Numbered from the stretch's first letter, positions 8,904 through 54,089 are shown. The stretch is 64,000 nucleotides of DNA from a virus (IMGVR_UViG_3300006925_000014:3008-67007); one strand, 5' to 3'. The notes: generated from the sequence alone by a model not told the origin. Translations and numbers: made by a program.

Positions 8904-9866
8904 ATGTCTAATGAAAGAACCTTAACTGACTTTAATAGACTTGAAGCTAACTTGCATCAACCGCAAGTCAAGACAGTTGTTCCTGAACACTTTAAAGAGC
9001 AGTATCCTAAACTTATAGATTTTCTAGAAGCATATTATGATTACCTAGATAGTGATGGACATCCGACACACAATCTTAAAAAGATGTTTACTATTCGTGA
9101 CCCCGGCTCAACTGATGATGAATTTTTAGACCTATTGTTTCAAGAGAAAACATTTAGCACAGATACATTCCCTTCTCCTAGATTTGCTTACCTTCAAATT
9201 CCGGGACTTCTCAATAGTAAGGGTACAAAAATATCTATTGACTCATTCTTTAGATATTTCCAAGGTACGGATGTAGAGCAAATTCTACCTAGAAACTCTA
9301 TGTTTATTGTTGGTCAGTCAGAGATTGGGGCAGAATCTTTAAGATTTATTCAGGACTCTTACTTCTATCAGGTATACTCTATTCTATTAAGAACTAACGT
9401 TCCCCCTACAGAATGGTTTAACTTCTATAAGAACTATCTACATCCAGCAGGGTTTGCAATCTTTACAGAAACACTGTTTGAACTTTTACCAACAAACTCT
9501 CAATTAGCAGCAAGTATGCCTCTGGCTCTGGTAGATAGTGATATTGCAGTAACTTCCTTTGAATTTTCTGCTGATCTTAATCTTTCTCCAACTATCAGTC
9601 TCACAGGTATTGATAGTGCAACTAATACAAGATACTATCCTGACAGAGAAATTCATTTCTATAATGATTCTATCAATGGTATTGGTGACTCCTATGATAA
9701 CTATGCATCTATTGCAGATATCCTAAATACTAATTCACCGACCTTTGATGATTCGGCTGACTCGGCTAACTCTGGACTTACCCGCATCTTTATGTCTGAT
9801 ACCATACAGACAATGGATGAAGGTGTATTTCCGTTTTATGATAGTGTAGGAACTGATGTTCCTTAA
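8904..9866 (+). CDS. gp7: Baseplate wedge initiator, short gp7-like
   Basis: P.HF.EQYP..IDFLEAYYDYL, KGT..SI..FFR, IQDSYFYQ.YS and HPAGF motifs; follows gp6. Confidence 0.7.
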   Translation: MSNERTLTDFNRLEANLHQPQVKTVVPEHFKEQYPKLIDFLEAYYDYLDSDGHPTHNLKKMFTIRDPGSTDDEFLDLLFQEKTFSTDTFPSPRFAYLQIPGLLNSKGTKISIDSFFRYFQGTDVEQILPRNSMFIVGQSEIGAESLRFIQDSYFYQVYSILLRTNVPPTEWFNFYKNYLHPAGFAIFTETLFELLPTNSQLAASMPLALVDSDIAVTSFEFSADLNLSPTISLTGIDSATNTRYYPDREIHFYNDSINGIGDSYDNYASIADILNTNSPTFDDSADSANSGLTRIFMSDTIQTMDEGVFPFYDSVGTDVP

Positions 9867-9873
9867 ATTCTGG

Positions 9874-9881
9874 TATAAATA
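9874..9881 (+). promoter_or_regulatory. T4-type late promoter
   Basis: Intergenic TATAAATA upstream of the gp9-like gene. Confidence 0.75.
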
Positions 9882-9909
9882 TTATTAATTCATTTACTGA
9901 GTAGGTAAC

Positions 9910-10983
9910 ATGGCAAGACAAAACATTTCAATTGGTGCAGCAGCAAATGATGGCACAGGTGATACCCTTAGAGGTGCTGGCACTAAGATTAATGATAACT
10001 TTACAGAACTTTATTCTGCACTAGGTGGTGATAGCACATCACTTGGTAATAATATTAGTTTTGATAGCACTGGTATCATTTTTTCCAATGACTCTAACTT
10101 CAGTGTTACTTTAGGACTGCTAGACTCAGCTCTTATGAGTAATAAGGTTGTCAGTCTTCCTAACAAGACTGGTGAGCTTGTCGTCATTGAAGGTACAGCA
10201 GGAAGTAGAAACGTTAATCTTGCAGACTCTCCTACTGGTGTTGCTGCAACACTATACTTTGGTAACTCCTTTGCTAATGCATCTGTACTTCCTTCTTCTA
10301 CTGTATATAATGGTATGTTTGGGTTCTTAGAAGACGAAGAAAGGGCTGTGGCAGCAGGTGGCACAAATGGTTGGGTAAGATTAATTGATAGTGACTTGTT
10401 ATCTACAGGAAACTATAGCATCACAACTAATGCTACTTTTAGTGGCATTACGTTAAATGATCCTAAGATGAAGACTATTATTCGTGACTCTGGTGATCAG
10501 CCAATTGTTCAATTGTCTACAGATGGAACACCTACTAATTATCTTAAAATTACTTCTACAGATTCCTCTCCAACTATTGGAGCAGAGGGTGGTACAGATG
10601 TAGGTGTAAATATTAAACCAAAGAATGATGGTGTTATTTGTTTTGACGGTAGGATTAAATACAACGTACAAAACATGACAGATGTTGATGACGTATTTGA
10701 TTCAGGTGCAGCATTATATATTATTAATGCAGCAACGTCTCATACTTTCAACTTCTTTGGCACAGGTTTTGAGGTTGGTGAAGTAAAGAAGGTTATTAAT
10801 AAGAGTGGTGCAAGTACAGTAACTATTCAGTGGCCTAACGGTCTTACATACTTTGCACATCCAGACGGTGGTTCCGGTTTTGTAGAAATGACAGGTAACG
10901 GATACTTTGAAACAATTTGGGACGGGGACCAATGGCATGTTAGCAAAGATTCGGACAAACTTGGTAAATTTGGAATTGGTTAA
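9910..10983 (+). CDS. gp9: Baseplate tail-fibre connector, gp9/gp10-like
   Basis: N-terminal IG..ANDGTGDTLR.AG.KINDNF.ELY motif of the gp9/gp10 family. Confidence 0.75.
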   Translation: MARQNISIGAAANDGTGDTLRGAGTKINDNFTELYSALGGDSTSLGNNISFDSTGIIFSNDSNFSVTLGLLDSALMSNKVVSLPNKTGELVVIEGTAGSRNVNLADSPTGVAATLYFGNSFANASVLPSSTVYNGMFGFLEDEERAVAAGGTNGWVRLIDSDLLSTGNYSITTNATFSGITLNDPKMKTIIRDSGDQPIVQLSTDGTPTNYLKITSTDSSPTIGAEGGTDVGVNIKPKNDGVICFDGRIKYNVQNMTDVDDVFDSGAALYIINAATSHTFNFFGTGFEVGEVKKVINKSGASTVTIQWPNGLTYFAHPDGGSGFVEMTGNGYFETIWDGDQWHVSKDSDKLGKFGIG

Positions 10984-11001
10984 AATAGGTAGTAAAAACA
11001 C

Positions 11002-12378
11002 ATGGTAGCAATCGTAACCGATGATTTAAAAAAAGTAGTTGTATCAGAATTAATTGCTGATGTAGGTGATTCTGCAAGCAACTATTATATTGGTATTGGT
11101 AAATCTGATCAATGGAATATTACCGATACTCCACCAACACCAGTTCCGACAGATAGAGAAGAAAGAGACTTTAGGGCAAATCTTCAGTCTGTCATTAAGA
11201 CTACTGATGTTAGCTATGTTGCTCCTAGATACAATTGGGCTTCTGGTACAACCTATCAGGCATATAGTGACGAAAAGACTGCAACTGGTACAAGTGCAAA
11301 TGGTCAGTACTATGTAATGACTGCATCAAACAGAGTTTACATTTGTTTGCAACAAGGTAAAGATGCCACTGGCACTCCACAGCCTTCTAGTGTTGACCCG
11401 GACACAACACTTACTACTACTAACCCCGGTGTTGCTACAGCAGATGGATATATCTGGAAGTATCTTTACACACAGTCTGCTTTGAGACTAAGTAAGTTTG
11501 GTTCTGCTAACTTTATTCCAGTAGAATTTGTTGGTAGTGGAGTGCTTACCTCTATTGAGACAGCACAGCAAAATGTTCAGAATGCTGCTATTCCGGGTTC
11601 TATTATTGGATACAAAGTGGTCTCTCCCGGCTCTGGATATGCTGTTAGTGATACTGTAACTATTCAGGGTAACGGTAGTTTTGCTAGAGCTAAGTTAACG
11701 GCTGATCCTGTATCTGGTGTTATCAGAAAAGTAGAGATTGATGACTCTACGGCAATTCCAGTTGGTTCAGGATATGACTTTGCTAATGTTAAAATCAATA
11801 CCTCTACAGGTACAGGTGCTGTAATTAGACCTGTTATCTCTAAGAAGGGTATTGGTGCTGATGCTAGAGAAGACCTTAGATCAAGGTCACTTATGTTTAA
11901 TGCAAAGATTGTAGGTGAAGCGGGTGATGGTGATTTTATTATTAACAATGATTTCAGACAAGTAGGTCTGATTAGAAACCCAACTATCCCTACAAGTCGG
12001 TCTGCTGCGGACTCAGACTTTACTGCAACTACTGGTTCTGCACTTAGAATTCTTACATTAGACTCTGCTATTACAACAGGTATTGAGGCAGATGATCTTC
12101 TGGTAGGTGATAATACAGGTGCAAAGGTATATGTAGATAAAGTTAATGGTCCACAAATTTCCTATCACCAAAACGACAACACAGGTTACTTAGCATTTAG
12201 CTCTGCTGATGTTGCAATCAATGACTCATTAGGAACCAGAACTGCTGCTGCTTTTGTATCAGACTCTAATGGTGAAGTCAATCCTTTCAGTGGAGAGGTG
12301 CTATATATTGAGAACAGAGCCGCAATCCTTCGCAGTAGTGTTGGTACTGAAGATATTAAAATGATTGTGCAGTTTTAA
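11002..12378 (+). CDS. gp8: Baseplate wedge subunit gp8
   Basis: YIGIGK..W, PRYNW.SG, VYICL, DGYIWKYLY, NDFRQVGLIRNP and SGEVLYIENR motifs. Confidence 0.9.
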   Translation: MVAIVTDDLKKVVVSELIADVGDSASNYYIGIGKSDQWNITDTPPTPVPTDREERDFRANLQSVIKTTDVSYVAPRYNWASGTTYQAYSDEKTATGTSANGQYYVMTASNRVYICLQQGKDATGTPQPSSVDPDTTLTTTNPGVATADGYIWKYLYTQSALRLSKFGSANFIPVEFVGSGVLTSIETAQQNVQNAAIPGSIIGYKVVSPGSGYAVSDTVTIQGNGSFARAKLTADPVSGVIRKVEIDDSTAIPVGSGYDFANVKINTSTGTGAVIRPVISKKGIGADAREDLRSRSLMFNAKIVGEAGDGDFIINNDFRQVGLIRNPTIPTSRSAADSDFTATTGSALRILTLDSAITTGIEADDLLVGDNTGAKVYVDKVNGPQISYHQNDNTGYLAFSSADVAINDSLGTRTAAAFVSDSNGEVNPFSGEVLYIENRAAILRSSVGTEDIKMIVQF

Positions 12379-12393
12379 AAGGTAAAATAAGAA

Positions 12394-15300
12394 ATGCCAA
12401 ATACGTTTAACGAAAATACATTTGCTACTACCTACAAGGATGATTATAGAGATAGTGATAACTATCACCGCATTCTGTTTAACTCTGGACGAGCCTTGCA
12501 AGCCAGAGAACTTACACAGGCACAGACAATCATCCAGAAAGAACTGGCAAGACTTGGTAGACATATCTTCAAGGAAGGTGCTGTTGTAAACCCCGGTGGG
12601 TTGATGGTAGATGATGCATATGAGTTTGTTAAACTTGCTGATGCTTCTCCTTCTCTTTACCCCGGTGATATTCTCACTGCCACTTCATCTAATGGCGTAC
12701 AGGCAGAAGTGCTTGAACTGGTAGAGCAAGAGGGCAGTGACCCTGCTACAGTTTACGTTAAATATATTAATACTGGCTCCGCTACATCTGGCTCTGCTCC
12801 TGTAAGATTTACTGCTGGTCAGGCTCTAGACAATGGTGACGAATCTGGTCAAGCGGGTTCCAGTTCCGTAACGGTTGCCCCTGCTACGCAGAACCCTGTG
12901 GTGGGAAAAGGATTTAAGGTATCTGTGAACTTGGGTGGATACTTTACCAGAGGACATTTTGTACAGTCCTTACCTCAAGGTGTTATCATTAGCAAATACA
13001 GCAACACTCCAACTACAAATGTCGGCTTCTTAATCTCAGAAGACATTGTTACTGTTGCTGATACTAATGATCTTTATGACAACCAGCTTGGATATGCCAA
13101 CGAGACTGCACCGGGTGCAGACAGATATAGAATTAGACTTACTCTGGCAAACCAAGACTTGGTAGACTCTGCTGATAACTTTATTGTTATTAATAGATTT
13201 GTCAATGGTGTTATGCAGCAAGAAATTGATGAAAATGATAATTACAACATTATTGGTGATGAACTTGCACAGAGAACCAAAGAAGAGTCTGGTAGTTACA
13301 CGGTAGAAGACTTTGATGTTAAATTTAGACCAAGTAAGTCTGGTGCAGATTTTCTTGATTTAGAAGTATCTCCCGGTCTGGCATATGTAAATGGATATAG
13401 GATTTCTAAGCCAGCATCTTCTATTATTACTGTAGAAAAACCTAGAACTACAGAAACATTTAATAATGAAAATATTCCGGTAAGCTATGGTAACTATGTT
13501 ATAACTACTGGCACTGTAGGATTACCAAATATTAATGCGTTTGAAATTAACAGACTATATGATGCTGCTGATGTAGGTGGTTCTGTTATTGGTAACTGTA
13601 AGGTTAGAGCAGTAGAGTCTCAAGGAAACGGCACTTACAGATACTATATCTTTGATGTACAGTTAGCGGCTGGTCAAAACTTTAGAGATACTAGAAGTAT
13701 TGGCATAAACGGGACTAACTATGCCAACATTAAAATTGATGATACCAATAATATTGCAGTAATCAGAGAAGAAACAAATAACAATGTATTCTTTGATCTT
13801 CCTAGAAAAAGACCATCTTCTGTGGAAGACTTTGACCTGACAGTACAAAGACGTTTCATGCAGACAGCATCTAGTAGTCAGATTTCCTTTACACTAAGTG
13901 GTGCAGAGACTTTTGTTGATACTACTCTTTGGATTGTTACAAGAAGTGATACAGGTGCAGTTGTAACACTCTCACCAAGTGATATTGTTCTTACTGGTGA
14001 TTCTAAGCAAGTAACTATTACGGTTCCTACTGATGCAATTGCCTATGAAGTGTTGGCATATGTAGACAAAGGTTCTGATGCTATTCAGAGAACAAAGTCC
14101 AAGACATTTGGTGGTACTGCTACACTCACCTTTGATAGTGATGGCAACGGTATTCGTTTTGCTGAACTTCCTAATACTGACATTTATGAATTCTTAGAAA
14201 TTTTAGATTTTGATAGTAATGACATTAGCTCTAATGTAACTACAGATAATGGTCAGAGAGATAACTTCTACCAGAAAGGTAGAGTGGTTCTTAGAGGTGG
14301 CTTGTCATTACCAAAGAACAATACAGTTAAAGTCAAGTACAATTACTTTGAGCATACAGCAGGGGATTTCTTCTCCCGTAACTCCTACATTGGTGCTGTT
14401 GCATATGAAGACATTCCTGCCTACAGAATGCAGAATGGTTTTGAGGTAGAGTTAAGAGACGTACTTGATTTCAGAAGTGTTAAGGATAGTGTAAGCACTG
14501 GTCATGATGGTGCAGAAGCAATTGTTACACCACTCCCAAGAAACACAAGTGCTATTGGTGCAGATATTACTTACTATGACCCAAGAAATGATATTCTGGT
14601 AGTAACAGAAGAGGGTGATATTCAATATATCACTGGTGAACCAAACATTAATCCAGTAATCCCTTCTGTCCCAAGCACTGCTATGCACACTCATAGCTTT
14701 GCGTTAAATGCTTACACAGATAATGAAGATGATCTTGGTGTAAAACCTGTTGACAACAGAAGATATACTATGCGTGATATTGGTAATATTGTTAAGCGCA
14801 TTGATAATCTTGAAGAAGTGACTACTCTTTCACTGTTAGAACTTGAAACGTCTTCTTTGGAAGTTCTGGACTCTTCTGGCAATAATAGATTTAAAAATGG
14901 TTTCTTTGCGGACAACTTCAAAGACCTAGCTTTTGCTGATATCTTTGCTACAGATTACAGTGCTTCTCATGATGTTCTTGACGGAACAATCATGCCTAGC
15001 ATTGGTCAGAACAGTGTTAGATTGATTGTAGACTCTGATGCTTCTGTTTCTGCTAATACTGTTAGAAAGGGTGACTTTATTTATCTTTCCTACAATGAGG
15101 TAAATGAAATTGACCAGAATGTTGCAACAGAAACAATGAACATTAACCCATTTGCGGTTATCAATTTCATTGGACAGCTTGAACTTTCTCCCGACCAAGA
15201 TCAGTGGAGAGAAGACGTATTCCTTGAAGCACCTAGAGCGCAGAGAAGACAGCGCCTTAGAAGACGCAGGGGTAGAGATATTACTCCTAGAAGAAGAAGA

Positions 15301-17655
15301 CGCAGAGCTAGATTTATCCAAAGACCTATCCCAATAAGAGATACTGGTCCAGACAATATTGGTGGTCAACCAAATATTGGTTCTCTAACGTCTTTTGATG
15401 GTTTGGAGTTAGGTCAATTCATTGATACTCCTGACAGAAGATTATCTTCTACTAGCAGAACACGCACATCTAGAACAGGTAATAGAATTACAACTACAAC
15501 CACATCGGTTACCAGAACTCTTATTGGTCGTAGGGTTGTAGACATTTCTCTGTTACCATTTATTAGACACAGAAAAGTATTCTTCAGAGGTACTGGTTTG
15601 GCTCCTGACAGAGAACACTTCTTGTTCTTTGATGGAGAAGGAATGTCTGACTATGCAAAGACAGAAGCATTCCAGTCCTTTAGTGACAGTGGTGGTAATG
15701 TTGAACAGAACTATATGGGTGGTCAGTGGCAGAATAACACGACACACCCACAAGGTACAGGTGCACTGACCACAGATGCATTTGGTACAGTTACTGGTTC
15801 GTTCTTCCTGCCAAACAATGACACTCTTAGATTTGATGCTGGCATTAAACCAGTAAAACTTCTAGATGTAAATACGGATGACGATAATGCTGCACTTTCT
15901 CAGGCTCATGCTACTTATGAAGCACAGGGTGTAAAGGTCACACTTGAGGATGTGGTATCTACAACTAGAAGATCACGTTCTAGAACTAGAATTCTTCCAA
16001 GACCTAGAAACAGAGACCCACTAGCACAGTCTTTCTGGATTCAAAATACAAATGGTGGATACCTTACCTCTATTGACGTATACTTTGCGAAGAAGCCTGA
16101 TGGCGTTAATGACAATACACCTGTACAACTGGAACTGAGACCGTTGCGCAATGGTGTACCTTCTCAGGAAGAGATTGTTCCGGGTGGCATTGTAACACTT
16201 AATCCAAATGATGTTAATGCTGTTTCCTTGGCTAGTGCAGTTGCACTTGGTGAAGGCGCAATGGCAGAAATTAGACAAAATGCTAAAACTACCTTTACCT
16301 TTGATAGACCACTTTATGTAGAAGGTAATACACAGTATGCATTTGTTCTGATTGCAAACACAACTAACTATGAAGTTTATGTCTCTGAAATTGAGGATTT
16401 CCTTGTAGGTTCTAATACCAGAAGAGTTAGAAAGCAACCTTCCTTGGGTTCCTTGTTCAAGTCTCAAAACTCTATTACATGGTCACCAGACCAGAGACGT
16501 GATATGATGTTCAGAATTAACAGAGCAGACTTCTCTACTTCTGGTACAGCATATCTGGAAAATGCTCCGGGTGTTCCTGCACTGCTGGCTAGTGATCCTA
16601 TCATGCTTGATAGTGTAGTAGCAAACGATAGTGATGTTGTATTGTTCTTCCCTAACCACGGTTACTCAATCAACGATACTATTGAACTGCATGGACTTGA
16701 TTCCAATACAAGTTACGGTGACCTTTCTGGGGCAAGCTTGCTTGGTGAAAGAACTGTTACAAAGATAGATGCACAGAGCCTGACATTCAAGTCTGACTCA
16801 GTATCTACTAGAACATCCTTTATTGGTGGTTCAGGTATTTCTATTGAGAGACAAGTTATTATGGATGAGGTTACTCCGGTAATTGACTTCTTCTCACTTC
16901 CTGCTACATCTGCTACATTTAATGCTAGGTTTACTGACTTTATTTCTATTCCACAGGCAAATGATTCTACTAACACAGCATACGGTGTACCAAGTACAGG
17001 GTTTAACTTTATCCCTAACGAAACCATTGTATTTGAATACCCAAGAGTGGTAGCTAATACCTATCAGGAAAGAGATGAAGCAACACTTGGTGGGGCAAAT
17101 AAGAAGTCTGTGGCAATTTCTGCTGCACTTTCTACCAATGACACCTATGTATCTCCATTGATTGATTTGACAACTGCTTCTCTGGAAGCAATCAACAATA
17201 TTATTGATAACCCTGTAGACTCTGATGGTGCAGTAGATACAGCAAACACTGTAAACTTCCCAATTGAGTTTGCAGCAGAAACTGATCCTGATGGCACTGC
17301 TGCTGCTAAACATGTAACTATCCCTGTAGGGCTGGCAGAAGCAGCTGTTGGTCTTAAAGTATTTGTTGGTGCTAATGTTCCTACAGTAGCAGACATTGAC
17401 TTGTACTACAGAACACTGTCTCCGGGTGAAGATGTTGAACTTGATACAGTAAATTATATTAAGGCAACACCTGATAATGAATTGCCAAAGTCTGATAATC
17501 GTGATACCTTTAGAGAATACCAGTACACAATTGGTGGACTTGCAGGTACGCTCAATCCATTTACAACATTCCAGTTAAAGATTGTAATGCGGTCGCAAAA
17601 TTCTTCTAAAGTTCCTCGTATTAAAGACATTAGATCGATTGCATTGGGTACATAA
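12394..17655 (+). CDS. Large virion structural protein (DUF4815/VrlC-like)
   Basis: YHRILF..GRALQARELTQ.Q, RYTMRDIG..RI.NLE..T.LSLLE, INPFAV, DPLAQSF and GSLFKSQN motifs typical of marine T4-like phages. Confidence 0.85.
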   Translation: MPNTFNENTFATTYKDDYRDSDNYHRILFNSGRALQARELTQAQTIIQKELARLGRHIFKEGAVVNPGGLMVDDAYEFVKLADASPSLYPGDILTATSSNGVQAEVLELVEQEGSDPATVYVKYINTGSATSGSAPVRFTAGQALDNGDESGQAGSSSVTVAPATQNPVVGKGFKVSVNLGGYFTRGHFVQSLPQGVIISKYSNTPTTNVGFLISEDIVTVADTNDLYDNQLGYANETAPGADRYRIRLTLANQDLVDSADNFIVINRFVNGVMQQEIDENDNYNIIGDELAQRTKEESGSYTVEDFDVKFRPSKSGADFLDLEVSPGLAYVNGYRISKPASSIITVEKPRTTETFNNENIPVSYGNYVITTGTVGLPNINAFEINRLYDAADVGGSVIGNCKVRAVESQGNGTYRYYIFDVQLAAGQNFRDTRSIGINGTNYANIKIDDTNNIAVIREETNNNVFFDLPRKRPSSVEDFDLTVQRRFMQTASSSQISFTLSGAETFVDTTLWIVTRSDTGAVVTLSPSDIVLTGDSKQVTITVPTDAIAYEVLAYVDKGSDAIQRTKSKTFGGTATLTFDSDGNGIRFAELPNTDIYEFLEILDFDSNDISSNVTTDNGQRDNFYQKGRVVLRGGLSLPKNNTVKVKYNYFEHTAGDFFSRNSYIGAVAYEDIPAYRMQNGFEVELRDVLDFRSVKDSVSTGHDGAEAIVTPLPRNTSAIGADITYYDPRNDILVVTEEGDIQYITGEPNINPVIPSVPSTAMHTHSFALNAYTDNEDDLGVKPVDNRRYTMRDIGNIVKRIDNLEEVTTLSLLELETSSLEVLDSSGNNRFKNGFFADNFKDLAFADIFATDYSASHDVLDGTIMPSIGQNSVRLIVDSDASVSANTVRKGDFIYLSYNEVNEIDQNVATETMNINPFAVINFIGQLELSPDQDQWREDVFLEAPRAQRRQRLRRRRGRDITPRRRRRRARFIQRPIPIRDTGPDNIGGQPNIGSLTSFDGLELGQFIDTPDRRLSSTSRTRTSRTGNRITTTTTSVTRTLIGRRVVDISLLPFIRHRKVFFRGTGLAPDREHFLFFDGEGMSDYAKTEAFQSFSDSGGNVEQNYMGGQWQNNTTHPQGTGALTTDAFGTVTGSFFLPNNDTLRFDAGIKPVKLLDVNTDDDNAALSQAHATYEAQGVKVTLEDVVSTTRRSRSRTRILPRPRNRDPLAQSFWIQNTNGGYLTSIDVYFAKKPDGVNDNTPVQLELRPLRNGVPSQEEIVPGGIVTLNPNDVNAVSLASAVALGEGAMAEIRQNAKTTFTFDRPLYVEGNTQYAFVLIANTTNYEVYVSEIEDFLVGSNTRRVRKQPSLGSLFKSQNSITWSPDQRRDMMFRINRADFSTSGTAYLENAPGVPALLASDPIMLDSVVANDSDVVLFFPNHGYSINDTIELHGLDSNTSYGDLSGASLLGERTVTKIDAQSLTFKSDSVSTRTSFIGGSGISIERQVIMDEVTPVIDFFSLPATSATFNARFTDFISIPQANDSTNTAYGVPSTGFNFIPNETIVFEYPRVVANTYQERDEATLGGANKKSVAISAALSTNDTYVSPLIDLTTASLEAINNIIDNPVDSDGAVDTANTVNFPIEFAAETDPDGTAAAKHVTIPVGLAEAAVGLKVFVGANVPTVADIDLYYRTLSPGEDVELDTVNYIKATPDNELPKSDNRDTFREYQYTIGGLAGTLNPFTTFQLKIVMRSQNSSKVPRIKDIRSIALGT

Positions 17656-17657
17656 CT

Positions 17658-17867
17658 ATGCAGAATGATTATGTACCAGTTGAGGGCAGTCCCGGATTAG
17701 TCAGAGATAAGGCTACCGGGGCTATTATAAATACAGATAAATCAGGTCTACAGGCTGCAAAAGCAAGAAAGCTTGCTCAAAAGCAGGACAGAGAAAGATT
17801 AGATAAAATAGAAAATGATGTAAGTGAAATTAAAAAATTTTTGGAGAAACTGGTAAATGACAACTGA
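17658..17867 (+). CDS. Small conserved phage protein with coiled-coil C-terminus
   Basis: VEG.PGLVRD..TGAIIN motif, usually found after DUF4815 genes. Confidence 0.7.
   Translation: MQNDYVPVEGSPGLVRDKATGAIINTDKSGLQAAKARKLAQKQDRERLDKIENDVSEIKKFLEKLVNDN
17726..17733 (+). promoter_or_regulatory. Possible late promoter
   Basis: TATAAATA inside the small ORF, about 125 nt upstream of the 17857 gene. Confidence 0.5.
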
Positions 17868-27618: not shown

Positions 27619-27630
27619 GATATAAGTTAA

Positions 27631-41054: not shown

Positions 41055-41080
41055 CATACGCTGTTATGAGGACATAATAT

Positions 41081-41455: not shown

Positions 41456-41456
41456 C

Positions 41457-43433: not shown

Positions 43434-43452
43434 TAAATATGTTACAAAGAAC

Positions 43453-44119
43453 AGGTAAAGATAAATGAGTACATTAGCCACTACAAATATAAAAAATCCA
43501 AGTTCAGGCACAAACAACATTGTTCTGAATACGGATGGAACTGTTGCTGTTGATAATTTAAATATTGATGGTAATTTAAGTGTAGAGAATGGTGTAATAA
43601 AATTACCTGCTCTCGCAAGTGATCCATCAAGTCCTACCTCTGGAGATTTATACTATAACACAACTGACAATGCAATTAAGCATTATAATGGTACAATTTG
43701 GAGTGGTCCAGCTTCTGTTATATTTGAGGCTGGAAGATCAGCAGGTCATGTGAGTGCTACCAATGTCGTTTTATGGGACGACGTTTCAATAAACATTGGA
43801 AGTCACTACGATGCAAGCACTGGTAGGTTTACGGCTCCAACTGATGGTATATACGAGTTTCATTGGGGCGGAATTAAAAATAACCAAGCCGGTGTAGTAC
43901 GGTTATATTTAAGAAAAAATGGTACTCAGATAAAGCAAAATAGGTTGTCAGACGGTGATATTTACAACGGGGCAGTTTGGAGTATGTATTTATCACTCAA
44001 TGCGTCAGACTATGTAGACGTATACCTTTCAGAAGGCACCTTATTCGGCACCTTTAGTATATATAACACTTTCGGTGGTAGACTCATAGGATAATAAAAT
44101 AGGTAAAGATAAATGAGTA
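43453..44119 (+). repeat. 19-bp direct repeat bracketing the C1q gene
   Basis: aggtaaagataaatgagta at 43453-43471 and 44101-44119. Confidence 0.9.
43465..44094 (+). CDS. C1q-domain receptor-binding protein
   Basis: NIGSHYD.STGRFTAP.DGIYEF, LRKNG, L.LNASDYVDVY and TFGGRLIG motifs. Confidence 0.8.
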   Translation: MSTLATTNIKNPSSGTNNIVLNTDGTVAVDNLNIDGNLSVENGVIKLPALASDPSSPTSGDLYYNTTDNAIKHYNGTIWSGPASVIFEAGRSAGHVSATNVVLWDDVSINIGSHYDASTGRFTAPTDGIYEFHWGGIKNNQAGVVRLYLRKNGTQIKQNRLSDGDIYNGAVWSMYLSLNASDYVDVYLSEGTLFGTFSIYNTFGGRLIG

Positions 44120-46448: not shown

Positions 46449-48260
46449 ATGGCTTTTTTCACGCCTTCACTGTCTCCAGCTGTAGTAACCCGTGAGATTG
46501 ATCTCACTGGAATTGTCCCTAACGTAGCCACATCGACGGGTGTGATCGTAGGTAACTTTCGCTGGGGTCCGGTTGAACAACCGACTGAAGTAGATAACGA
46601 AGCAAGACTTGTTTCTTTGTTTGCCTCTCCTGACACAAATAACACAGTAGATTTTAACTCTGCTGCATATTTTACCAAATACTCCCAAGAACTTTTAGTT
46701 GTTCGGGAAGTAACAGATGCTGCTAAAAACGCATTCTATGACGACTCTGGGGCATGGACTGATGCTGGTTCCAGAACAGCACGTCTTATTAAGAATGGTG
46801 CAGATTGGGATAACACAATCTCGGCGGCAGATAGTGATACTCACTCATTCATTGGCAAGTACCCCGGTGCACTTGGCAACAGTATTCAGGTTCAAGTCTG
46901 TCCATACAGTGCAACGGACTCTGCCTTCACTGGTTGGTCTGGTAACCTGAATTTAGAATTTGATGCTGCTCCTGATATGTCTCAGTTTGCAGCAAGTCAA
47001 ATTGGTGCAGACTCTATTGGTGTTAGCAAGGTACATGATGAAGTTCATGTTGCTATCATTGATAAAGAAGGATTGTTTAGTGGTCAAGTAGGTGGTGTTC
47101 TTGAAACATTCCCATTCCTTTCCCTTGCATCTAATGCAAAGAATGCAGACGGTTCTACAAACTACATTGCAGACGTACTGAACACTCAGTCCAAGTATGT
47201 TTGGCTTGCTAATGCAGCTAACCTTGACTCTGCATTTAATGCAGCAGGTGCTGGTACTGATCTTGTAGATTCTGCTGATGACTATTCCCTGACTGGTTCT
47301 GCACAGACAGTACAAACCTATAACCTTTCTGGTGGTAAAAACTCTGGCTCTCTTGGTACTTCTGAGATTGCAACAGGTTTTGACACAATCAAAGATGTTG
47401 ATGCATATCAGGTAGATTTCCTGATTGCTCCACACAACGCTGGTTCTGATGCACAGGCAGTTACTGATCATGTTACAGTTATTAACAACATGACAAGTAT
47501 TGCTGCTGTAACTCGTAAGGACTGTGTAGTTGTAGCATCCCCACCAAAAGGTGTGTTGACAAGTGTTGACCCTGTAGGCGATACTGTAACATTTGCTAAC
47601 AGGCTTACAAATAGTTCCTACTGTTTCTTGGATAACAACTATCTGAAAGTCTTTGACAAGTATAATGACCAGTACATTACCATCCCGGCAGCTTCCTCTA
47701 CCGCTGGTCTGATGGCTCAAACAGACTTTACCACAGCACCTTGGTTCTCCCCTGCGGGTACAAGAAGAGGTATCTACTTTGGCGTAACAGATATCTTACA
47801 CTCACCTGATAAGGGTGAAAGAGATACCCTGTACAGAGCCAATGTAAACCCAATTACTAACCTTCCCGGCACAGGCATTACCTTGTTTGGTGACAAGACC
47901 ATGCTGCGCAGACCTTCTGCATTTGACAGAATTAACGTGCGCAGACTGTTCCTGACACTGGAAAGAGCAATTTCCAGTGCTGCTAGACAGGTTCTCTTTG
48001 AGTTTAACGACGAATTCACCAGAGCAGAATTCGTAAATATCGTTGAACCTTTCCTGAGAGAAGTAAAGGGTCGTCGTGGTATCACTGATTTCAGAGTAGT
48101 TTGTGACGAAACAAACAACACACCTGAGATTATTGATCGCAATGAATTCATTGCTACTATCTTCATTAAGCCTGCTCGCTCGATCAACTTTGTTACTCTT
48201 AACTTTGTTGCTACTCGTACCGGCGTAGACTTTGAAGAAGTAGTTGGTCTGTCATTCTAA
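46449..48260 (+). CDS. gp18: Tail sheath protein
   Basis: SPAV..REIDLT, PWFSPAG..RG, FDRINVRRLF, FEFND and IKPARSINF motifs. Confidence 0.97.
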   Translation: MAFFTPSLSPAVVTREIDLTGIVPNVATSTGVIVGNFRWGPVEQPTEVDNEARLVSLFASPDTNNTVDFNSAAYFTKYSQELLVVREVTDAAKNAFYDDSGAWTDAGSRTARLIKNGADWDNTISAADSDTHSFIGKYPGALGNSIQVQVCPYSATDSAFTGWSGNLNLEFDAAPDMSQFAASQIGADSIGVSKVHDEVHVAIIDKEGLFSGQVGGVLETFPFLSLASNAKNADGSTNYIADVLNTQSKYVWLANAANLDSAFNAAGAGTDLVDSADDYSLTGSAQTVQTYNLSGGKNSGSLGTSEIATGFDTIKDVDAYQVDFLIAPHNAGSDAQAVTDHVTVINNMTSIAAVTRKDCVVVASPPKGVLTSVDPVGDTVTFANRLTNSSYCFLDNNYLKVFDKYNDQYITIPAASSTAGLMAQTDFTTAPWFSPAGTRRGIYFGVTDILHSPDKGERDTLYRANVNPITNLPGTGITLFGDKTMLRRPSAFDRINVRRLFLTLERAISSAARQVLFEFNDEFTRAEFVNIVEPFLREVKGRRGITDFRVVCDETNNTPEIIDRNEFIATIFIKPARSINFVTLNFVATRTGVDFEEVVGLSF

Positions 48261-48285
48261 ACCGCTTAACTAAGGAGATATAAAG

Positions 48286-48813: not shown

Positions 48814-48820
48814 CAGGATG

Positions 48821-48853: not shown

Positions 48854-48873
48854 ACTATTTTCGGAGAAAAGTT

Positions 48874-50412: not shown

Positions 50413-50417
50413 ATTAT

Positions 50418-50425
50418 TATAAATA
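50418..50425 (+). promoter_or_regulatory. T4-type late promoter
   Basis: Intergenic TATAAATA. Confidence 0.8.
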
Positions 50426-50455
50426 TTACTACGAAATTTATTTTGAGGCAAACAA

Positions 50456-51577: not shown

Positions 51578-51589
51578 TAGGAGATAAAC

Positions 51590-52729
51590 ATGTCCGACCA
51601 AGAAATGTACGAAGACATTCAATCTGTTGAAGAGGTTATTGAGGAAGAAACTCAAGAATCTGATGAGGCAGTAGAAGTGTCTGAGGAAGCTGATGAAGTT
51701 TCCGAAGCAAAGAATGGTGTGGAAAGCCCTGAAGCAGCAATTGGTTCTGTCAATAAGGCAGCCCGTGCTGTTAAGAGCAAGGCAAAAGTTCCCGGTGGTG
51801 AAGCTGTTAAAGCACAACCAGCAGAAAAAATGCCTTCCACAAAAGCTGGTATGATCAATGCTATGTACAGTGAAATGTCCAAGATGAAGAAGTCAGACCT
51901 TCAGGCTGGCTACGGTAAAATCATGGCACAAATGAAAATGAAAGTACATGAAGATGCTGAAGCAGAAGATTTTGATGCAGATGACATTCATGAAAAAGCA
52001 GCAGCAGTATCTGTTGATGTAACTGCTGATATGAATGCTCTGGTAGAATCCGAAGCTACTCTTTCCGAATCCTTCAAGGATAAGGCAGCAGTAATTATGG
52101 AAGCTGCGGTTAAGTCCAAGGTTTCTGAAGAAGTATCTCGCATTGAATCTGAACTTCAAGAAGAATTTGATGAAGAACTGAAGACTACCCGTGAAGAAAT
52201 GGTAGAGCAAATTGATGGATACCTGAGCTACGTTGTAGAAAAGTTCATGGAAGAAAACAAACTGGCTATCGAGTCTGGTCTGCGTGCAGAACTGGCAGAA
52301 GACTTTATGGTAGGTCTGAAGAACCTCTTCACAGAATCTTATGTTGACGTTCCTGAGTCTAAAGTTGATCTGGTAGATGAACTGCAAACTCAAGTTAACG
52401 ACCTTGAAGAAAAACTCAATGAATCCACAGAAACCTCTATCTACATGTATGGTGAACTGGAAGCACTGAAGCGTGATGCTATCATCCGTGAACATTCCCG
52501 TGATCTTGCTGAAACACAGGTAGAGAAGTTGAAAGCCTTAGCTGAAGATGTAGATTTTGAAGATGAAGAAACTTTCGCTCAGAAGGTATCTACCATCAAA
52601 GAATCTTACTTCACAAAGAAAACCCCATCGGTTGTAGGTGAGGAAGTAGTAGAGGAAGTAGAAGAGGAAGAAGTTTCCGATTCTATGGCTCGTTACGTCT
52701 CTGCAATCAAAAGAACTGTAAAACAATAA
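51590..52729 (+). CDS. gp22: Prohead scaffold protein
   Basis: LSESFK.KA..IMEAAV, YL.YVVE..M.EN.LA, GLK.LF.E.Y and IKESYF motifs. Confidence 0.93.
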   Translation: MSDQEMYEDIQSVEEVIEEETQESDEAVEVSEEADEVSEAKNGVESPEAAIGSVNKAARAVKSKAKVPGGEAVKAQPAEKMPSTKAGMINAMYSEMSKMKKSDLQAGYGKIMAQMKMKVHEDAEAEDFDADDIHEKAAAVSVDVTADMNALVESEATLSESFKDKAAVIMEAAVKSKVSEEVSRIESELQEEFDEELKTTREEMVEQIDGYLSYVVEKFMEENKLAIESGLRAELAEDFMVGLKNLFTESYVDVPESKVDLVDELQTQVNDLEEKLNESTETSIYMYGELEALKRDAIIREHSRDLAETQVEKLKALAEDVDFEDEETFAQKVSTIKESYFTKKTPSVVGEEVVEEVEEEEVSDSMARYVSAIKRTVKQ

Positions 52730-52748
52730 TTAAGGAAGGTGTATAGAA

Positions 52749-54089
52749 ATGCAAGCTCCTGTATCTTACGACAATCTCGTAAAAAAGTGGGCTCCAGTAC
52801 TGAATGAAGAAACTGCTGGACCTATTTCCGACCATTACCGTAAGCAAGTAACTGCTGCGATTCTGGAAAACCAAGAACGTGCTATGCGTGAAGAAGCTGC
52901 TCAGTCCTCTTTTGGTCAGCTTAACGAGTACGGCACTGATACCTCTAAGGTTGACAACTTTGATCCAGTATTGATTTCTCTGGTTCGTCGTGCTATGCCT
53001 AACCTGATCGCATATGATCTGTGTGGTGTACAGCCAATGACTGGTCCTACTGGTCTCATCTTTGCGATGAAGTCCAAGTACAAGACCACTAAGGGTGCTG
53101 TTACTGATTCTGATGAGGCTCTGTTCTCTGAAGCTCAGACTGGCTTCTCTGGTGACTCCGCATTCTCGCAAGGCACTGACCCATCCGGTCTTGGTGACTC
53201 TGCGTTTGCTGGTGACTCCGACATTGATAACAACCGTTCTACAGACATTTACGGTGAAGGTATCTCCACTGCTGATGCTGAAGCACTCGGTTCTACTGGT
53301 GCTGCTTTTGCAGAGATGGGTTTCACCATCGACAAGTCCACAGTAACTGCTAAGTCCCGTGCACTCAAAGCTGAGTACACAATGGAACTGGCACAAGACC
53401 TGAAAGCAATTCATGGTCTGGATGCTGAGACAGAACTCGCAAACATTCTGTCTGCTGAAATCCTTGCGGAAATTAACCGTGAAGTTATCCGTACCATTAA
53501 CTCCCAAGCTAAGACAGGTTGCCAGACAGTAACTGGTTCCACTTCTTCTAAGGGTATCTTTGACCTTCAGGTAGATGCTGATGGTCGTTGGTCCGTTGAA
53601 AAGTTCAAGGGTCTGATCTTCCAGCTTGAGCGTGAAGCAAACCAGATTGCTAAAGACACCAGACGTGGACGTGGTAACTTTGTTCTGTGTTCCTCTGATG
53701 TAGCATCCGCATTTGCTGCTGCTGGTTACCTTGACTACACCCCTGCACTTTCTAGCAACATGAATGTTGATGACACAGGCAACACTTTTGCTGGTGTACT
53801 TAACGGTAAGCACAGAGTGTACATTGACCCATATGCAACCAATGACTACATTACCACTGGTTACAAGGGTTCCAATGCATACGACGCTGGTGTATTCTAC
53901 TGCCCATACGTTCCATTAACAATGGTTCGTGCGATTGGTGAGAACACCTTCCAGCCAAAGATTGGTTTCAAGACTCGTTACGGCATGGTATCCAACCCAT
54001 TCGTTGGTGCTACACCTGCAAACGGTCTGGCTGCTGCTAAGTCTAACCAGTACTACAGAATCTTTAGGGTTGATAATATTCTGGCATAA
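52749..54089 (+). CDS. gp23: Major capsid protein
   Basis: GVQPMTGPTGLIFAM, SRALKAEYT.ELAQDLKAIHGLDAE and FQPKIGFKTRYG motifs. Confidence 0.99.
   Translation: MQAPVSYDNLVKKWAPVLNEETAGPISDHYRKQVTAAILENQERAMREEAAQSSFGQLNEYGTDTSKVDNFDPVLISLVRRAMPNLIAYDLCGVQPMTGPTGLIFAMKSKYKTTKGAVTDSDEALFSEAQTGFSGDSAFSQGTDPSGLGDSAFAGDSDIDNNRSTDIYGEGISTADAEALGSTGAAFAEMGFTIDKSTVTAKSRALKAEYTMELAQDLKAIHGLDAETELANILSAEILAEINREVIRTINSQAKTGCQTVTGSTSSKGIFDLQVDADGRWSVEKFKGLIFQLEREANQIAKDTRRGRGNFVLCSSDVASAFAAAGYLDYTPALSSNMNVDDTGNTFAGVLNGKHRVYIDPYATNDYITTGYKGSNAYDAGVFYCPYVPLTMVRAIGENTFQPKIGFKTRYGMVSNPFVGATPANGLAAAKSNQYYRIFRVDNILA

What the first reader, a model, noticed from the sequence alone, without database searches (positions are those of the whole stretch)
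8904..54089. Virion-wide Asp-Ser (DS) motif enrichment: candidate sequon for a phage-encoded virion modification (glycosylation) system
Seen (hand counts, approximate): DS is very frequent in outward-facing structural proteins. Counts are gp7-like about 10/320 aa, gp9-like 10/357 (10 of about 28 Asp are followed by Ser), gp8 6/458, DUF4815 about 15, ORF20919 6/222, ORF21587 6/150, ORF32488 5/159, and fibres about 23/915, 25/1093 and 35/1448. It is nearly absent from buried or non-virion proteins: gp19 0, gp21 0, gp25 0, UvsW 0/493, Asp-rich gp5-C 0/507, gp6 1/627, gp17 1/528, gp47 1/350, gp22 1/379. Ser is encoded by both TCN and AGY, so selection acts on the protein rather than the DNA. Established: Bacteroidetes O-glycosylate D-(S/T)-x sequons, and some actinobacteriophages glycosylate virion proteins with their own glycosyltransferases. 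Inference: DS is the acceptor site for a phage enzyme that coats the whole particle, for example for shielding, stability or adsorption control. I know of no description of such a sequon in T4-like phages.
Basis: partly seen in the sequence, partly recalled or inferred. Interest (0 to 1): 0.93.

Follow-up and report, generated by a model that had tools for sequence, protein, structure and literature searches.

The report
Asp-Ser signature of marine phage fibres
The outer baseplate and fibre proteins of this uncultured marine T4-like phage carry the pair Asp-Ser two to four times too often while the inner baseplate avoids it; most copies sit where a helix starts or a strand ends, and whether the serine is also chemically modified remains open.

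Summary
In genes 8904-39859, Asp-Ser (DS) is the top dipeptide of 400, with 169 observed against 73.2 expected. DT, ES, NS and SD are not enriched, and both serine codon families are used.

"Virion-wide" is too broad. Head, sheath, tube and neck together give 17 against 16.4. The distal adhesin cassette gives 2 against 7.9, and the hub and inner baseplate 5 against 14.9.

The trait belongs to a clade. Related uncultured phages show it, but six cultured T4-like phages do not. In the DS-rich clade gp6 avoids DS (16 against 77.2), whereas cyanophage-type gp6 does not (113 against 110.3).

In the models, DS starts the short helices of a widespread, unnamed fibre repeat that is predicted to be trimeric. 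In gp9-like, DS follows beta-strand ends.

A divergent GT-A-like gene (20198-20908) and its neighbour lie inside the fibre operon. They occur only in DS-rich records (5 of 18), but a DS-rich, 84%-complete relative lacks them.

My reading is that DS is mainly a structural cap or turn motif. A modification sequon is neither shown nor excluded. This scan has noted the same signature at least eight times on other DNA.

The parts
8904..9866 (+).
   Evidence: Pfam PF23786, E 2.8e-13. Counts and shuffle p 0.002. None of its 10 DS lie in fibre repeat units.
9910..10983 (+). gp9/gp10-N-like baseplate protein, DS-rich: 10 against 2.7 expected
   Evidence: Pfam PF07880. In the AF2 model (pLDDT 76.5) all 10 DS are in coil, 7 within 0-2 residues of a strand end. 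In a 95-sequence family alignment only D41-S42 is conserved (87 of 95).
11002..17655 (+). gp8-like protein and VrlC/DUF4815 protein, with weak DS excess (6 against 3.4; 15 against 10.8)
   Evidence: Pfam. Shuffle p about 0.1 for each.
17857..19113 (+). Unknown 418-aa protein, DS-rich (8 against 2.8)
   Evidence: No Pfam or PHROG family. TATAAATA lies at 17726, upstream.
19128..20908 (+). Three-gene DS-poor cassette inside the fibre operon: ORF 19128 (unknown), ORF 19591 (unknown, with weak 2OG-oxygenase/hydroxylase leads only) and ORF 20198 (divergent GT-A-like glycosyltransferase candidate)
   Evidence: In A3 (31 sequences) Y85, D87, D89 and H228 are invariant. The profile's best 19 PDB hits are all glycogenin, E 0.0011-0.023, with the DxD aligned. 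An Atlas lead points to a Nucleotid_trans/GT8 cluster at 0.97. Pfam is below cut-off. ORFs 19591 and 20198 lie adjacent in the same 5 of 40 records. The Atlas gives 0.88-0.89 for ORF 19591.
20919..22039 (+). Two small DS-rich proteins (6 against 1.8; 6 against 2.0) that share the C-terminal ending IDGGSF. The N-terminal part of 20919 resembles an L-shaped tail fibre assembly family.
   Evidence: phrog_3304, E 4.3e-13.
24543..30912 (+). A small protein (3 against 0.9, p 0.064) and two fibres of 915 and 1093 aa (23 against 7.9; 25 against 9.0), with DS mostly outside recognisable repeat units
   Evidence: No Pfam family above the gathering cut-off for any of the three; the small protein has one sub-threshold herpesvirus gp350 match (E 0.0017).
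32488..32967 (+). Unknown 159-aa protein, DS-rich (5 against 1.4)
   Evidence: No family found.
35513..39859 (+). 1448-aa fibre (35 against 12.6). 24 of its 35 DS lie in repeat units, and the masked residual is 1.23.
   Evidence: Mtd_N at the N-terminus.
36098..36412 (+). Run of bipartite DS-helix repeats (about 21 aa, of the form G-I/L-DS-A-x-V-x-x-L-I-DS-A/D-Y-V/I-Q-A-R) in fibre 35513, residues 196-300
   Evidence: In the AF2 fragment 9 of 10 helix starts carry DS. Homotrimer test: 0.71 against best control 0.00. 502 cluster representatives match at E<=1e-3.
37325..37672 (+). Five units, spaced 19-24 residues apart (three spacings of 24, one of 19), that contain Thr-His-Asp-Ser. There are 10 THDS in the whole fibre.
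39844..44094 (+). DS-poor distal cassette (LamG-like, Gly-rich, C1q-like). With ORF 30916 it gives 2 against 7.9. GC is higher (0.46).
   Evidence: Pfam, counts, composition.
3..8902 (+). Hub and inner baseplate genes (gp5 parts, gp25, gp6), DS-depleted: 5 against 14.9
   Evidence: Pfam, counts. gp6 homologues of DS-rich loci give 16 against 77.2.
46449..48260 (+). Tail sheath: 6 DS, all in residues 90-280 (2.31 expected there) and 0 in the other 413 aa (1.77 expected)
52749..54089 (+). Major capsid protein: 4 DS, all in residues 115-160 (1.39 expected) and 0 in the other 401 aa (1.49 expected)

Best explanation
In this clade of uncultured marine T4-like phages, DS is mainly a structural boundary motif of outer-tail proteins. 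The aspartate caps the start of a helix or closes the end of a beta strand, and the small serine follows it.

In the long fibre, DS heads each short helix of an unnamed, widespread repeat: phi-phi-D-S-(A/D)-Y-(V/I)-x-x-R, paired with D-S-A-x-V-x-x-L-I. This repeat is predicted to pack as a parallel, in-register trimer. In gp9-like and other beta-rich proteins, DS occupies the turn right after a strand.

What is shown: the excess, its specificity, its clade distribution and the conservation of D and S within the repeat. What is only modelled: the position at helix starts and strand ends, and the trimer. What is inferred: that capping and packing are the reason for the excess. This reading does not explain why gp6 of the same clade avoids DS.
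For: - **Fibre fragment.** In the AF2 model, 9 of 13 DS lie at a helix start, with D as the last non-helical residue, and 9 of 10 helix starts carry DS.
- **Trimer test.** Three copies of residues 27-131 of that fragment score 0.71 against a best control of 0.00. Partner pLDDT is at least 83 and the runs agree in at least 93% of contacts. That mark was reached by 20 of 30 solved pairs and 1 of 23 single chains. My own alignment and three copies were used, so those counts hold only roughly. Same-residue contacts (42-42, 58-58, 63-63) indicate an in-register parallel bundle, and every DS is listed in the interface.
- **Units anchored without requiring DS.** Of 149 units in the window and its relatives, D fills the first position in 140, S the second in 138, and DT occurs once. 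Of 1322 units in the best 150 of 502 matching cluster representatives, D fills 1294 (the rest are N 16, T 11, A 1) and S fills 1235 (the rest include A 40 and T 20). Asp is thus replaced by other cap-competent residues, and Ser mostly by Ala, which cannot accept a modification.
- **gp9-like.** In the AF2 model (pLDDT 76.5) all 10 DS are in coil and 7 lie 0-2 residues after a strand end. Six loops (near residues 52, 122, 160, 193, 264 and 347) carry DS recurrently in distant homologues, and the alternatives in those columns are turn dipeptides such as NK, GN, GG and TD.
- **Context.** The residue before DS is hydrophobic in 51% of cases against 31% background, and V/I is enriched at +4. The pattern phi-DS-x-x-phi occurs in 31 of 168 DS against 61 of 624 other Asp (OR 2.1, p 0.003).
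Against: - Only 32 of 168 DS in the window lie in recognisable helical repeat units, and the rest still give 136 against 67.3. I could model only one beta-rich protein.
- The fragment model is weak (pLDDT 59.7).
- Ordinary capping does not explain a sharp clade split. Outer-protein O/E is 1.9-3.0 in DS-rich records against 0.63-1.24 in DS-poor ones, with nothing between. Six cultured phages give about 0.3-1.2.
- It does not explain covariation across unrelated proteins of one genome (Spearman 0.72, n=36, not corrected for phylogeny).
- It does not explain why gp6 of the DS-rich clade holds 0-1 DS where 3-4.5 are expected (16 against 77.2 in 24 proteins; DS is its most depleted dipeptide). In the same proteins SD is 0.83 and DT 1.12, and cyanophage-type gp6 gives 113 against 110.3 in 28 proteins.
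- Thr is almost excluded, although it would cap equally well.
Confidence: 0.45

Rival explanations
1. DS(A/D) is a sequon read by a phage-encoded enzyme that modifies the serine of outer-tail proteins, most simply by O-glycosylation. In this subclade the candidate enzymes are the GT-A-like gene 20198-20908 and its neighbour 19591-20205. The motif is purged from proteins where modification would do harm.
For: - The signature is two-sided and clade-specific: enrichment in outer proteins and avoidance in gp6, gp25 and gp5-C (gp6 16 against 77.2, gp25 0 against 9.8, gp5-C 7 against 22.4 in DS-rich loci). Cyanophage-type gp6 gives 1.02.
- DS richness covaries across unrelated proteins of one genome.
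- DS is gained at non-conserved loop positions of a conserved fold.
- The motif is directional and strictly Ser.
- Within sheath and capsid, all DS lie in one variable segment.
- The GT-A-like gene has an invariant YxDxD. Its profile's best 19 PDB hits are glycogenin, a protein-glycosylating GT8 (E 0.0011-0.023).
- That gene and ORF 19591 are adjacent in 5 of 18 DS-rich records and in 0 of 22 DS-poor ones (Fisher p 0.013, not corrected for phylogeny). They lie downstream of a TATAAATA at 17726.
Against: - No modification has been observed.
- G002 is DS-rich (outer block 2.07), 84% complete and has its whole fibre cluster in view, yet it lacks both genes. Four of the five positive records are the window's own subclade.
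- The GT assignment is weak. Pfam is below cut-off, with a best E of 0.0031 for GT2 in 16 of 31 members.
- S-SCSM1 is DS-poor, although PMC12801897 Table 1 lists GT homologues in it.
- In the repeat, Ser is replaced by Ala twice as often as by Thr. DS lies in the predicted trimer interface.
- The capsid as a whole and the distal adhesins are not enriched.
Confidence: 0.3
2. DS, including the Thr-His-Asp-Ser units, forms metal-binding layers (Ca2+/Mg2+ or a transition metal) on the three-fold axis of trimeric fibres and stabilises them in sea water.
For: - In-register same-residue contacts in the trimer model bring three copies of each DS together.
- His is 5.3-fold enriched before DS (11 cases), and fibre 35513 holds ten THDS units, several of them spaced 24 residues apart.
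- Asp is the commonest residue after DS (41 of 168).
- Recalled, not from a call: metal sites on the axis are known in T4 fibre proteins.
Against: - Most DS are not in the trimeric helical repeat.
- gp9-like DS lie in separate surface loops of the model.
- No tool here models ions.
- This does not explain the avoidance in gp6.
Confidence: 0.1
3. DS is a docking mark for a fibre-assembly chaperone that sets the register of trimerisation. Proteins that assemble by the wedge or hub route avoid it.
For: - It would explain both the enrichment in fibre and outer baseplate proteins and the avoidance in gp6, gp25 and gp5-C.
- The N-terminal part of ORF 20919 resembles an L-shaped tail fibre assembly family.
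- Recalled, not from a call: T4 needs gp57A and gp38 for its fibres.
Against: No chaperone was identified, and no known chaperone reads such a motif. The idea is entirely inferential.
Confidence: 0.08
4. The excess is an artefact of composition, internal repeats or a DNA-level signal.
For: Some copies are tandem repeats: THDS occurs 10 times and FDSSFTRDT-like units 3 times. TCN-encoded DS creates GANTC.
Against: - Shuffles and per-protein expectations were used.
- The residual after masking repeats is 2.02.
- The non-repetitive proteins 8904 and 9910 give 3.7.
- Ser codon families are used as elsewhere, and GANTC is not biased.
- A nitrogen-saving shift is rejected: N per side chain is 0.30 in DS-rich sets against 0.26 in DS-poor sets, and Asn is 6.7% against 6.4%.
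Confidence: 0.02

Closest known systems
Helix N-terminal capping (Asx N-cap, hydrophobic staple) and Asx/type I beta turns.
   Same: Asp is the last non-helical residue before predicted helices. The flanks at -1 and +4 are hydrophobic. Asp is replaced by Asn or Thr. DS follows strand ends in gp9-like.
   Different: Ordinary proteomes, and the sister phage clades, show no DS excess (0.85-0.94). Here the pair is near-invariant in a repeat and enriched across a whole set of proteins. Thr is excluded, and the same clade avoids DS in gp6.
Trimeric fibrous proteins with helix-start motifs, such as the DAVNxxQL-type transitions of trimeric autotransporter adhesin stalks, and T4 fibritin.
   Same: A parallel, in-register trimer is predicted, in which short helical segments each begin with an Asp-small-residue cap.
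   Different: There is no detectable sequence relation. The repeat has no Pfam family and no solved relative. The units are very short, at 9-10 residues.
General protein O-glycosylation of Bacteroidota, with sequon D-(S/T)-(A/I/L/V/M/T/S/G/F/C). Source: PMC8729774; abstract and passages read.
   Same: Asp lies immediately before a serine, and Ala is frequent at the next position.
   Different: DT is not enriched (0.80). Asp is the commonest next residue. That system acts on periplasm-exposed proteins and not in the cytoplasm. Nothing points to a Bacteroidota host.
Virion glycosylation of mycobacteriophages by phage glycosyltransferases (Freeman et al. 2023, PMC10527164). I saw only the reference entry in PMC12801897; its content is recalled.
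   Same: A phage glycosyltransferase-like gene sits among structural genes.
   Different: No glycan has been shown here. The capsid is not enriched, and the candidate acceptor would be a two- or three-residue motif in folded tail proteins.
Host recognition cluster of pelagimyophages and cyanomyophages, lying between VrlC and gp14 (PMC7029224; passages read).
   Same: The layout is the same: VrlC/DUF4815, then fibres mixed with enzyme genes, then the neck genes. That paper reports glycosyltransferases and radical SAM cassettes inside the cluster.
   Different: The paper assigns those enzymes to host surface modification and does not mention a DS motif. I could not see its supplements.

Membership tests
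Bacteroidota O-glycosylation sequon | Asp directly before the acceptor | tested here: met
   This holds by definition of the motif. DS is 169 against 73.2, while ES is 0.50 and NS 0.59.
Bacteroidota O-glycosylation sequon | Ser and Thr are both used as acceptor | tested here: not met
   DT is 66 against 82.6 in the block, 0.51 in 150 fibre proteins, and occurs once in 149 anchored units.
Bacteroidota O-glycosylation sequon | The next residue is A/I/L/V/M/T (extended set: S/G/F/C) | tested here: not met
   72 of 168 fall in A/I/L/V/M/T, against a background of 38.6%. Asp, which is outside the set, is the commonest at 41 of 168. I, L, T and F are depleted.
Bacteroidota O-glycosylation sequon | The substrate is exposed to the periplasm of a Bacteroidota host | not testable with these tools
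   [quoted passage not shown] The host is unknown.
Helix N-cap with hydrophobic staple | A cap residue (D/N/S/T) immediately before the first helical residue | tested here: met
   9 of 13 DS and 9 of 10 helix starts in the fragment model, which has a pLDDT of only 59.7. The trimer run has pLDDT of at least 83.
Helix N-cap with hydrophobic staple | Hydrophobic residues at N' and N4 | tested here: inconclusive
   31 of 168 DS fit, against 61 of 624 other Asp (OR 2.1). Most DS in the window do not fit.
Helix N-cap with hydrophobic staple | The cap residue is exchangeable with other cap-competent residues | tested here: met
   The 28 non-Asp residues at the cap position of 1322 units are N 16, T 11 and A 1.
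GT-A glycosyltransferase (for ORF 20198-20908) | DxD metal/nucleotide-sugar motif | tested here: met
   Y85, D87 and D89 are invariant in 31 sequences and align to the DxD of glycogenin.
GT-A glycosyltransferase (for ORF 20198-20908) | Significant profile match to a curated GT family | tested here: inconclusive
   Profile against PDB: the best 19 hits are glycogenin (E 0.0011-0.023) but cover only positions 6-100. Pfam is below cut-off: GT2 in 16 of 31 members, best E 0.0031. An Atlas lead scores 0.97.
GT-A glycosyltransferase (for ORF 20198-20908) | Transferase activity on a protein acceptor | not testable with these tools
   This needs expression and an assay.
Ser-Asp repeat glycosylation (SdgA/SdgB type) | Long tandem Ser-Asp dipeptide runs in a disordered region | tested here: not met
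   There are no SD runs. SD O/E is 1.22, and DS copies are single and sit in structured contexts. The family definition is recalled and also appears in earlier notes.
Homotrimeric phage fibre | Self-association of the repeat region | tested here: met
   Model only: 0.71 against a best control of 0.00, three runs agreeing in at least 93% of contacts, pLDDT at least 83. This supports self-association but does not show it.

The most novel reading that the evidence does not exclude
DS(A/D) is an undescribed code on the outer tail of a large clade of uncultured marine myoviruses, read in trans. Phage-encoded enzymes placed inside the fibre operon modify the serine, or the aspartate, of fibre and outer baseplate proteins. 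In this subclade those enzymes would be the GT-A-like gene and its partner; in others, the radical SAM/SPASM and 2OG-oxygenase islands. The motif is actively purged from inner baseplate proteins.
Probability: 0.27. Interest if true: 0.87.

Novelty: new variant of a known kind. Interest (0 to 1): 0.6.

Why it matters
The signature is strong and apparently undescribed. It is widespread: 502 protein clusters carry the repeat, and DS runs at 3.4-fold in 208,802 residues of fibre proteins. A full-text search for Asp-Ser with tail fiber, phage and repeat found one unrelated paper.

At the least, it defines a new fibre repeat family and gives a simple sequence marker for a major clade of uncultured marine T4-like phages and for their outer-tail proteins.

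The combination is what makes it worth an experiment. The same clade shows enrichment in outer proteins and avoidance in gp6, and enzyme cassettes sit inside the fibre operon. If the serine proves to be modified, this would be the first sequon-like virion modification in T4-like phages. It would bear on host recognition, particle stability and the role of the "auxiliary" glycosyltransferase and radical SAM genes in marine phage genomes.

Tried and rejected
**Ideas tested and rejected**
- Nitrogen saving or Asn avoidance as the driver. DS-rich sets have N per side chain of 0.30 against 0.26, and Asn 6.7% against 6.4%.
- A DNA-level signal. Ser codon families are used as elsewhere, and GANTC gives 229 against 213.6.
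- Asp/Asn beta-hydroxylase (PF05118). In 34 records there were 0 matches above cut-off and 2 weak ones, one of them in a DS-poor record.
- GT2 (PF00535). 0 of 5 large DS-rich records.
- A different enriched motif in DS-poor relatives. None was found; the top dipeptides there are TG 1.37 and SG 1.41.

**Searches that found nothing useful**
- Solved structures for the fibre, the repeat-rich gp9/10-like protein, the domain at 36620-36955 and ORF 19591 gave nothing, apart from the gp9/10 N-terminal domain.
- The fibre repeat in 50,697 GenBank phage records matched only residues 194-250, which lie outside the repeat. BLAST's low-complexity filter was on.
- NCBIfam on ten proteins from G001 and G002: eight radical SAM proteins and one SPASM-domain protein gave generic hits far below cut-off, and a neighbouring ORF gave none.

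**Radical SAM lead**
PF04055 occurs in 6 of 18 DS-rich records, in 0 of 16 DS-poor fragments, and above cut-off in 0 of 5 complete DS-poor genomes (Fisher p 0.006). This is confounded by clade and contig length, and S-SCSM1 was not searched. I keep it only as a lead.

**Limits on what was examined**
- No structure-prediction jobs remained for fibres 24871 and 27631.
- For one search, I used 35 of the 80 loci, choosing the longer ones; 28 distinct full-length gp6 remained.
- Supplements of the papers were closed and may hold gene tables that bear on the enzyme cassettes.

Full report
**What the window is.** The window is bases 3008-67007 of a 67-kb IMG/VR virus contig estimated 38% complete. 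All genes lie on the + strand. Pfam identifies a T4-like structural module. It includes gp5 parts, gp25, gp6, a baseplate wedge protein, a gp9/10-N-like protein, gp8-like, VrlC/DUF4815, neck proteins gp13/14/15, terminase, sheath, tube, portal, prohead protease, scaffold and gp23. UvsY, UvsW and gp47-like follow. The nearest cultured relatives by DNA are Synechococcus myoviruses at about 72-77% identity over short stretches. The layout of VrlC, then fibres mixed with other genes, then gp14 matches the "host recognition cluster" described for pelagimyophages and cyanomyophages (PMC7029224, passages read).

**The observation.** With per-protein composition as the expectation, nine proteins have O/E of 2.8-3.8 and p<=0.006 in 500 shuffles: 8904, 9910, 17857, 20919, 21587, 24871, 27631, 32488 and 35513.

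Over genes 8904-39859, DS is 169 against 73.2 (z 11.2), the first of 400 dipeptides. DT is 0.80, ES 0.50, NS 0.59 and SD 1.22. The rest of the window gives 30 against 45.7.

Serine after Asp uses AGY and TCN codons in the same proportion as other serines (64:104 against 227:477, p 0.17). GANTC, which TCN-encoded DS creates, is not biased. The signal is therefore on the protein.

The motif is longer than two residues. The residue before DS is hydrophobic in 51% of cases (background 31%). The residue after is Asp (41) or Ala (37), each threefold enriched, while K, R, E, Q, L, I, F, Y and P are depleted. V/I is enriched at +4 and I at +8. His is 5.3-fold enriched before DS.

**How far "virion-wide" holds.** It does not. 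Neck, sheath, tube, portal, scaffold and capsid together give 17 against 16.4. The LamG-like, Gly-rich and C1q-like cassette plus ORF 30916 gives 2 against 7.9, although such modules should be the most exposed. The hub and inner baseplate give 5 against 14.9.

Inside sheath and capsid, however, all DS fall in one segment. Six lie in sheath residues 90-280 and none in the other 413 aa. Four lie in capsid residues 115-160 and none in the other 401 aa.

**The trait belongs to a clade.**
- Among 95 gp9-like homologues, DS per protein ranges from 0 to 11 (399 against 166.7 overall). Only D41-S42 is conserved, in 87 of 95.
- Across IMG/VR loci, the DS O/E of gp9-like and of the other outer ORFs of the same locus covary (Spearman 0.72, n=36, not corrected for phylogeny).
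- The records I classed from outer ORFs split cleanly: six DS-rich ones at 1.9-3.0 and 16 DS-poor ones at 0.63-1.24, with nothing between. I also count G000-G005 and G012-G017 as DS-rich, on other grounds. G000 is the window's own contig. G001 and G002 have outer blocks at 2.24 and 2.07. The other nine (G003-G005, G012-G017) were fetched through DS-repeat matches and so are DS-rich by selection.
- DS-rich loci outside the window's own subclade give 670 against 277.1 (z 23.6). DS-poor loci give 250 against 279.0, and no other dipeptide stands out there.
- Five cultured phages (S-RIM8, P-TIM40, S-SM1, S-B64, Aeh1) give 0.85-0.94 over their baseplate and fibre regions. S-SCSM1 is mostly at or below 1.2.
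- In two relatives read end to end, the contrast holds genome-wide. G002 (84% complete) gives outer block 2.07, head/tail/inner baseplate 0.76 and non-structural 0.92. G001 gives 2.24, 0.60 and 0.65.

**Avoidance.**
- gp6 homologues from DS-rich loci hold 0 or 1 DS where 3-4.5 are expected: 16 against 77.2 in 24 proteins of 27-100% identity to the window's gp6.
- DS is their most depleted dipeptide, while SD is 0.83 and DT 1.12.
- gp25 gives 0 against 9.8 and gp5-C 7 against 22.4.
- Cyanophage-type gp6 gives 113 against 110.3 in 28 distinct proteins, taken from 35 of the 80 loci fetched.
- Relatedness inflates these statistics, but the direction is clear. No purely structural account predicts it.

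**Where DS sits.** In the gp9-like model (95-sequence alignment, pLDDT 76.5), all 10 DS are in coil and 7 lie 0-2 residues after a strand end. Six loops carry DS recurrently in distant homologues. The other sites are lineage-specific, and other lineages hold turn dipeptides such as NK, GN, GG or TD in the same columns.

Fibre 35513 contains a bipartite repeat of about 21 residues. A fragment model (pLDDT 59.7, weak) puts 9 of 13 DS at a helix start, and 9 of 10 helix starts carry DS.

Three copies of residues 27-131 of that fragment pass the complex test: 0.71 against a best control of 0.00, partner pLDDT at least 83, and runs agreeing in at least 93% of contacts. The mark was reached by 20 of 30 solved pairs and 1 of 23 single chains; with my own alignment and three copies, those counts hold only roughly. 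Same-residue contacts indicate a parallel, in-register bundle, and all DS are listed in the interface. This supports self-association but does not show it.

The repeat is widespread. Of 1.84 billion cluster representatives, 502 match at E<=1e-3, 292 at <=1e-10 and 91 at <=1e-30, many with 10-27 stretches. No Pfam family, solved structure or GenBank phage record covers it.

When units are anchored on the rest of the repeat, Asp and Ser are nearly invariant. In the window and its relatives, D fills 140 and S 138 of 149 units. In the best 150 representatives, D fills 1294 and S 1235 of 1322 units. Asp is replaced by Asn or Thr, and Ser by Ala (40) more often than by Thr (20).

In the window itself, only 32 of 168 DS lie in such units, 24 of them in fibre 35513. 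The rest still give 136 against 67.3. The helical repeat therefore explains that one fibre, not the whole signature.

**Candidate readers.** Pfam and PHROGs find no enzyme among the fibre genes. A note on this same genome (e1-6174333) pointed to the cassette at 19128-20908, and I tested it.
- The family of ORF 20198 (31 sequences) has invariant Y85, D87, D89 and H228.
- Its profile's best 19 hits in the PDB are all glycogenin, a GT8 enzyme that glycosylates a protein. E is 0.0011-0.023, the match covers positions 6-100, and the DxD is aligned.
- An Atlas lead points to a Nucleotid_trans/GT8 cluster at 0.97. Pfam stays below cut-off.
- ORF 19591 has only weak 2OG-oxygenase/hydroxylase leads at 0.88-0.89 and no PDB match.
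- The two genes lie adjacent in the same 5 of 40 records (G000, G001, G006, G007, G009). All five are DS-rich, and none of the 22 DS-poor records has them (Fisher p 0.013). Four of the five belong to the window's own subclade, and DS-rich G002 lacks both genes.
- TATAAATA occurs 13 times against 5.6 expected, 12 of them on the + strand, including at 17726 upstream of this stretch. That this is the T4 late promoter consensus is recalled.
- G002 instead carries five radical SAM genes and a 2OG oxygenase inside its fibre cluster.
- G001, a close relative of the window phage, carries further enzyme genes 7-33 kb beyond the window's left end. These are B12-binding and SPASM radical SAM genes and a GDP-mannose-dehydratase-like gene.
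- PF04055 is found in 6 of 18 DS-rich records, 0 of 16 DS-poor fragments, and above cut-off in 0 of 5 complete DS-poor genomes. This too is confounded by clade.

**Weighing.** The structural reading rests on direct if modest models, on the conservation pattern of the repeat, and on the Ser-to-Ala and Asp-to-Asn/Thr exchanges. The sequon reading rests on population-level signs:
- a sharp clade split;
- covariation across unrelated proteins;
- avoidance in gp6;
- strict Ser;
- enzyme cassettes in the fibre operon.

The two readings are compatible, because a sequon can lie at a helix cap or a turn. No single enzyme tracks the trait, and no chemistry has been shown. I put the structural cap/turn motif at 0.45, a modification sequon at 0.30, metal layers at 0.10, a chaperone mark at 0.08 and artefact at 0.02.

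DT is not enriched. Asp follows DS most often. That system works outside the cytoplasm (PMC8729774, abstract and passages read).

**Relation to earlier notes and print.** This scan has noted the same signature at least eight times on other DNA, with verdicts split between a structural helix-start motif and a modification tag. The helix-start position, the clade distribution and the weak link to glycosyltransferases were re-tested here. I did not see the gp6 avoidance in those summaries. A full-text search for Asp-Ser with tail fiber, phage and repeat found one unrelated paper. Searches on cyanophage virion glycosylation, and on radical SAM with tail fibres, found no description of such a motif. 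Supplements were closed.

Noticed in passing
window 36620-36955 (fibre 35513, residues about 370-480): A roughly 110-residue domain follows the DS repeats. It carries His ... Tyr-x-Cys-x-x-His-x-x-Met-x-Gly and holds the only Cys of the 1448-aa fibre. The spacing recalls type-1 copper (cupredoxin) ligands, which is recalled and not tested. The same domain ends gp9-like proteins of DS-poor cyanophages and recurs beside DS repeats in IMG/VR loci. No PDB or Pfam match was found.
   Followed up: partly
G002:C1:42702-53829 (L121) and G001:C1:34000-62000 (L128-L130): Relatives carry clusters of radical SAM genes. In G002, five lie with a 2OG oxygenase inside the fibre cluster. In G001 there are B12-binding and SPASM types beside a GDP-mannose-dehydratase-like gene. 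All are generic by NCBIfam. They are found only in DS-rich records so far.
   Followed up: partly
window 37325-37672 and elsewhere in 35513-39859: Fibre 35513 holds ten Thr-His-Asp-Ser units. Five lie 19-24 residues apart in one run (three spacings of 24, one of 19). They may be metal sites on the fibre axis.
   Followed up: no
window 20919-22039: The two adjacent small DS-rich proteins end with the same C-terminal hexapeptide, IDGGSF. This may be a shared attachment or processing signal.
   Followed up: no
window 39844-44094: The distal cassette (LamG-like, Gly-rich, C1q-like) has higher GC (0.46 against about 0.38) and almost no DS. That is consistent with recent acquisition.
   Followed up: partly
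window 1232-6538: The gp5 functions are split over separate genes: OB domain, lysozyme-like, CHAP, Amidase_2-like, and a 507-aa protein without a family.
   Followed up: no
window 62234-63337: The phage encodes a Bmp/PnrA-like ABC substrate-binding protein (Pfam E 2.1e-53).
   Followed up: no
L096:3001-3831: An IMG/VR fibre has twelve head-to-tail copies of the nine-residue unit DSDYIKGF(V/I), the shortest form of the DS repeat I saw.
   Followed up: no
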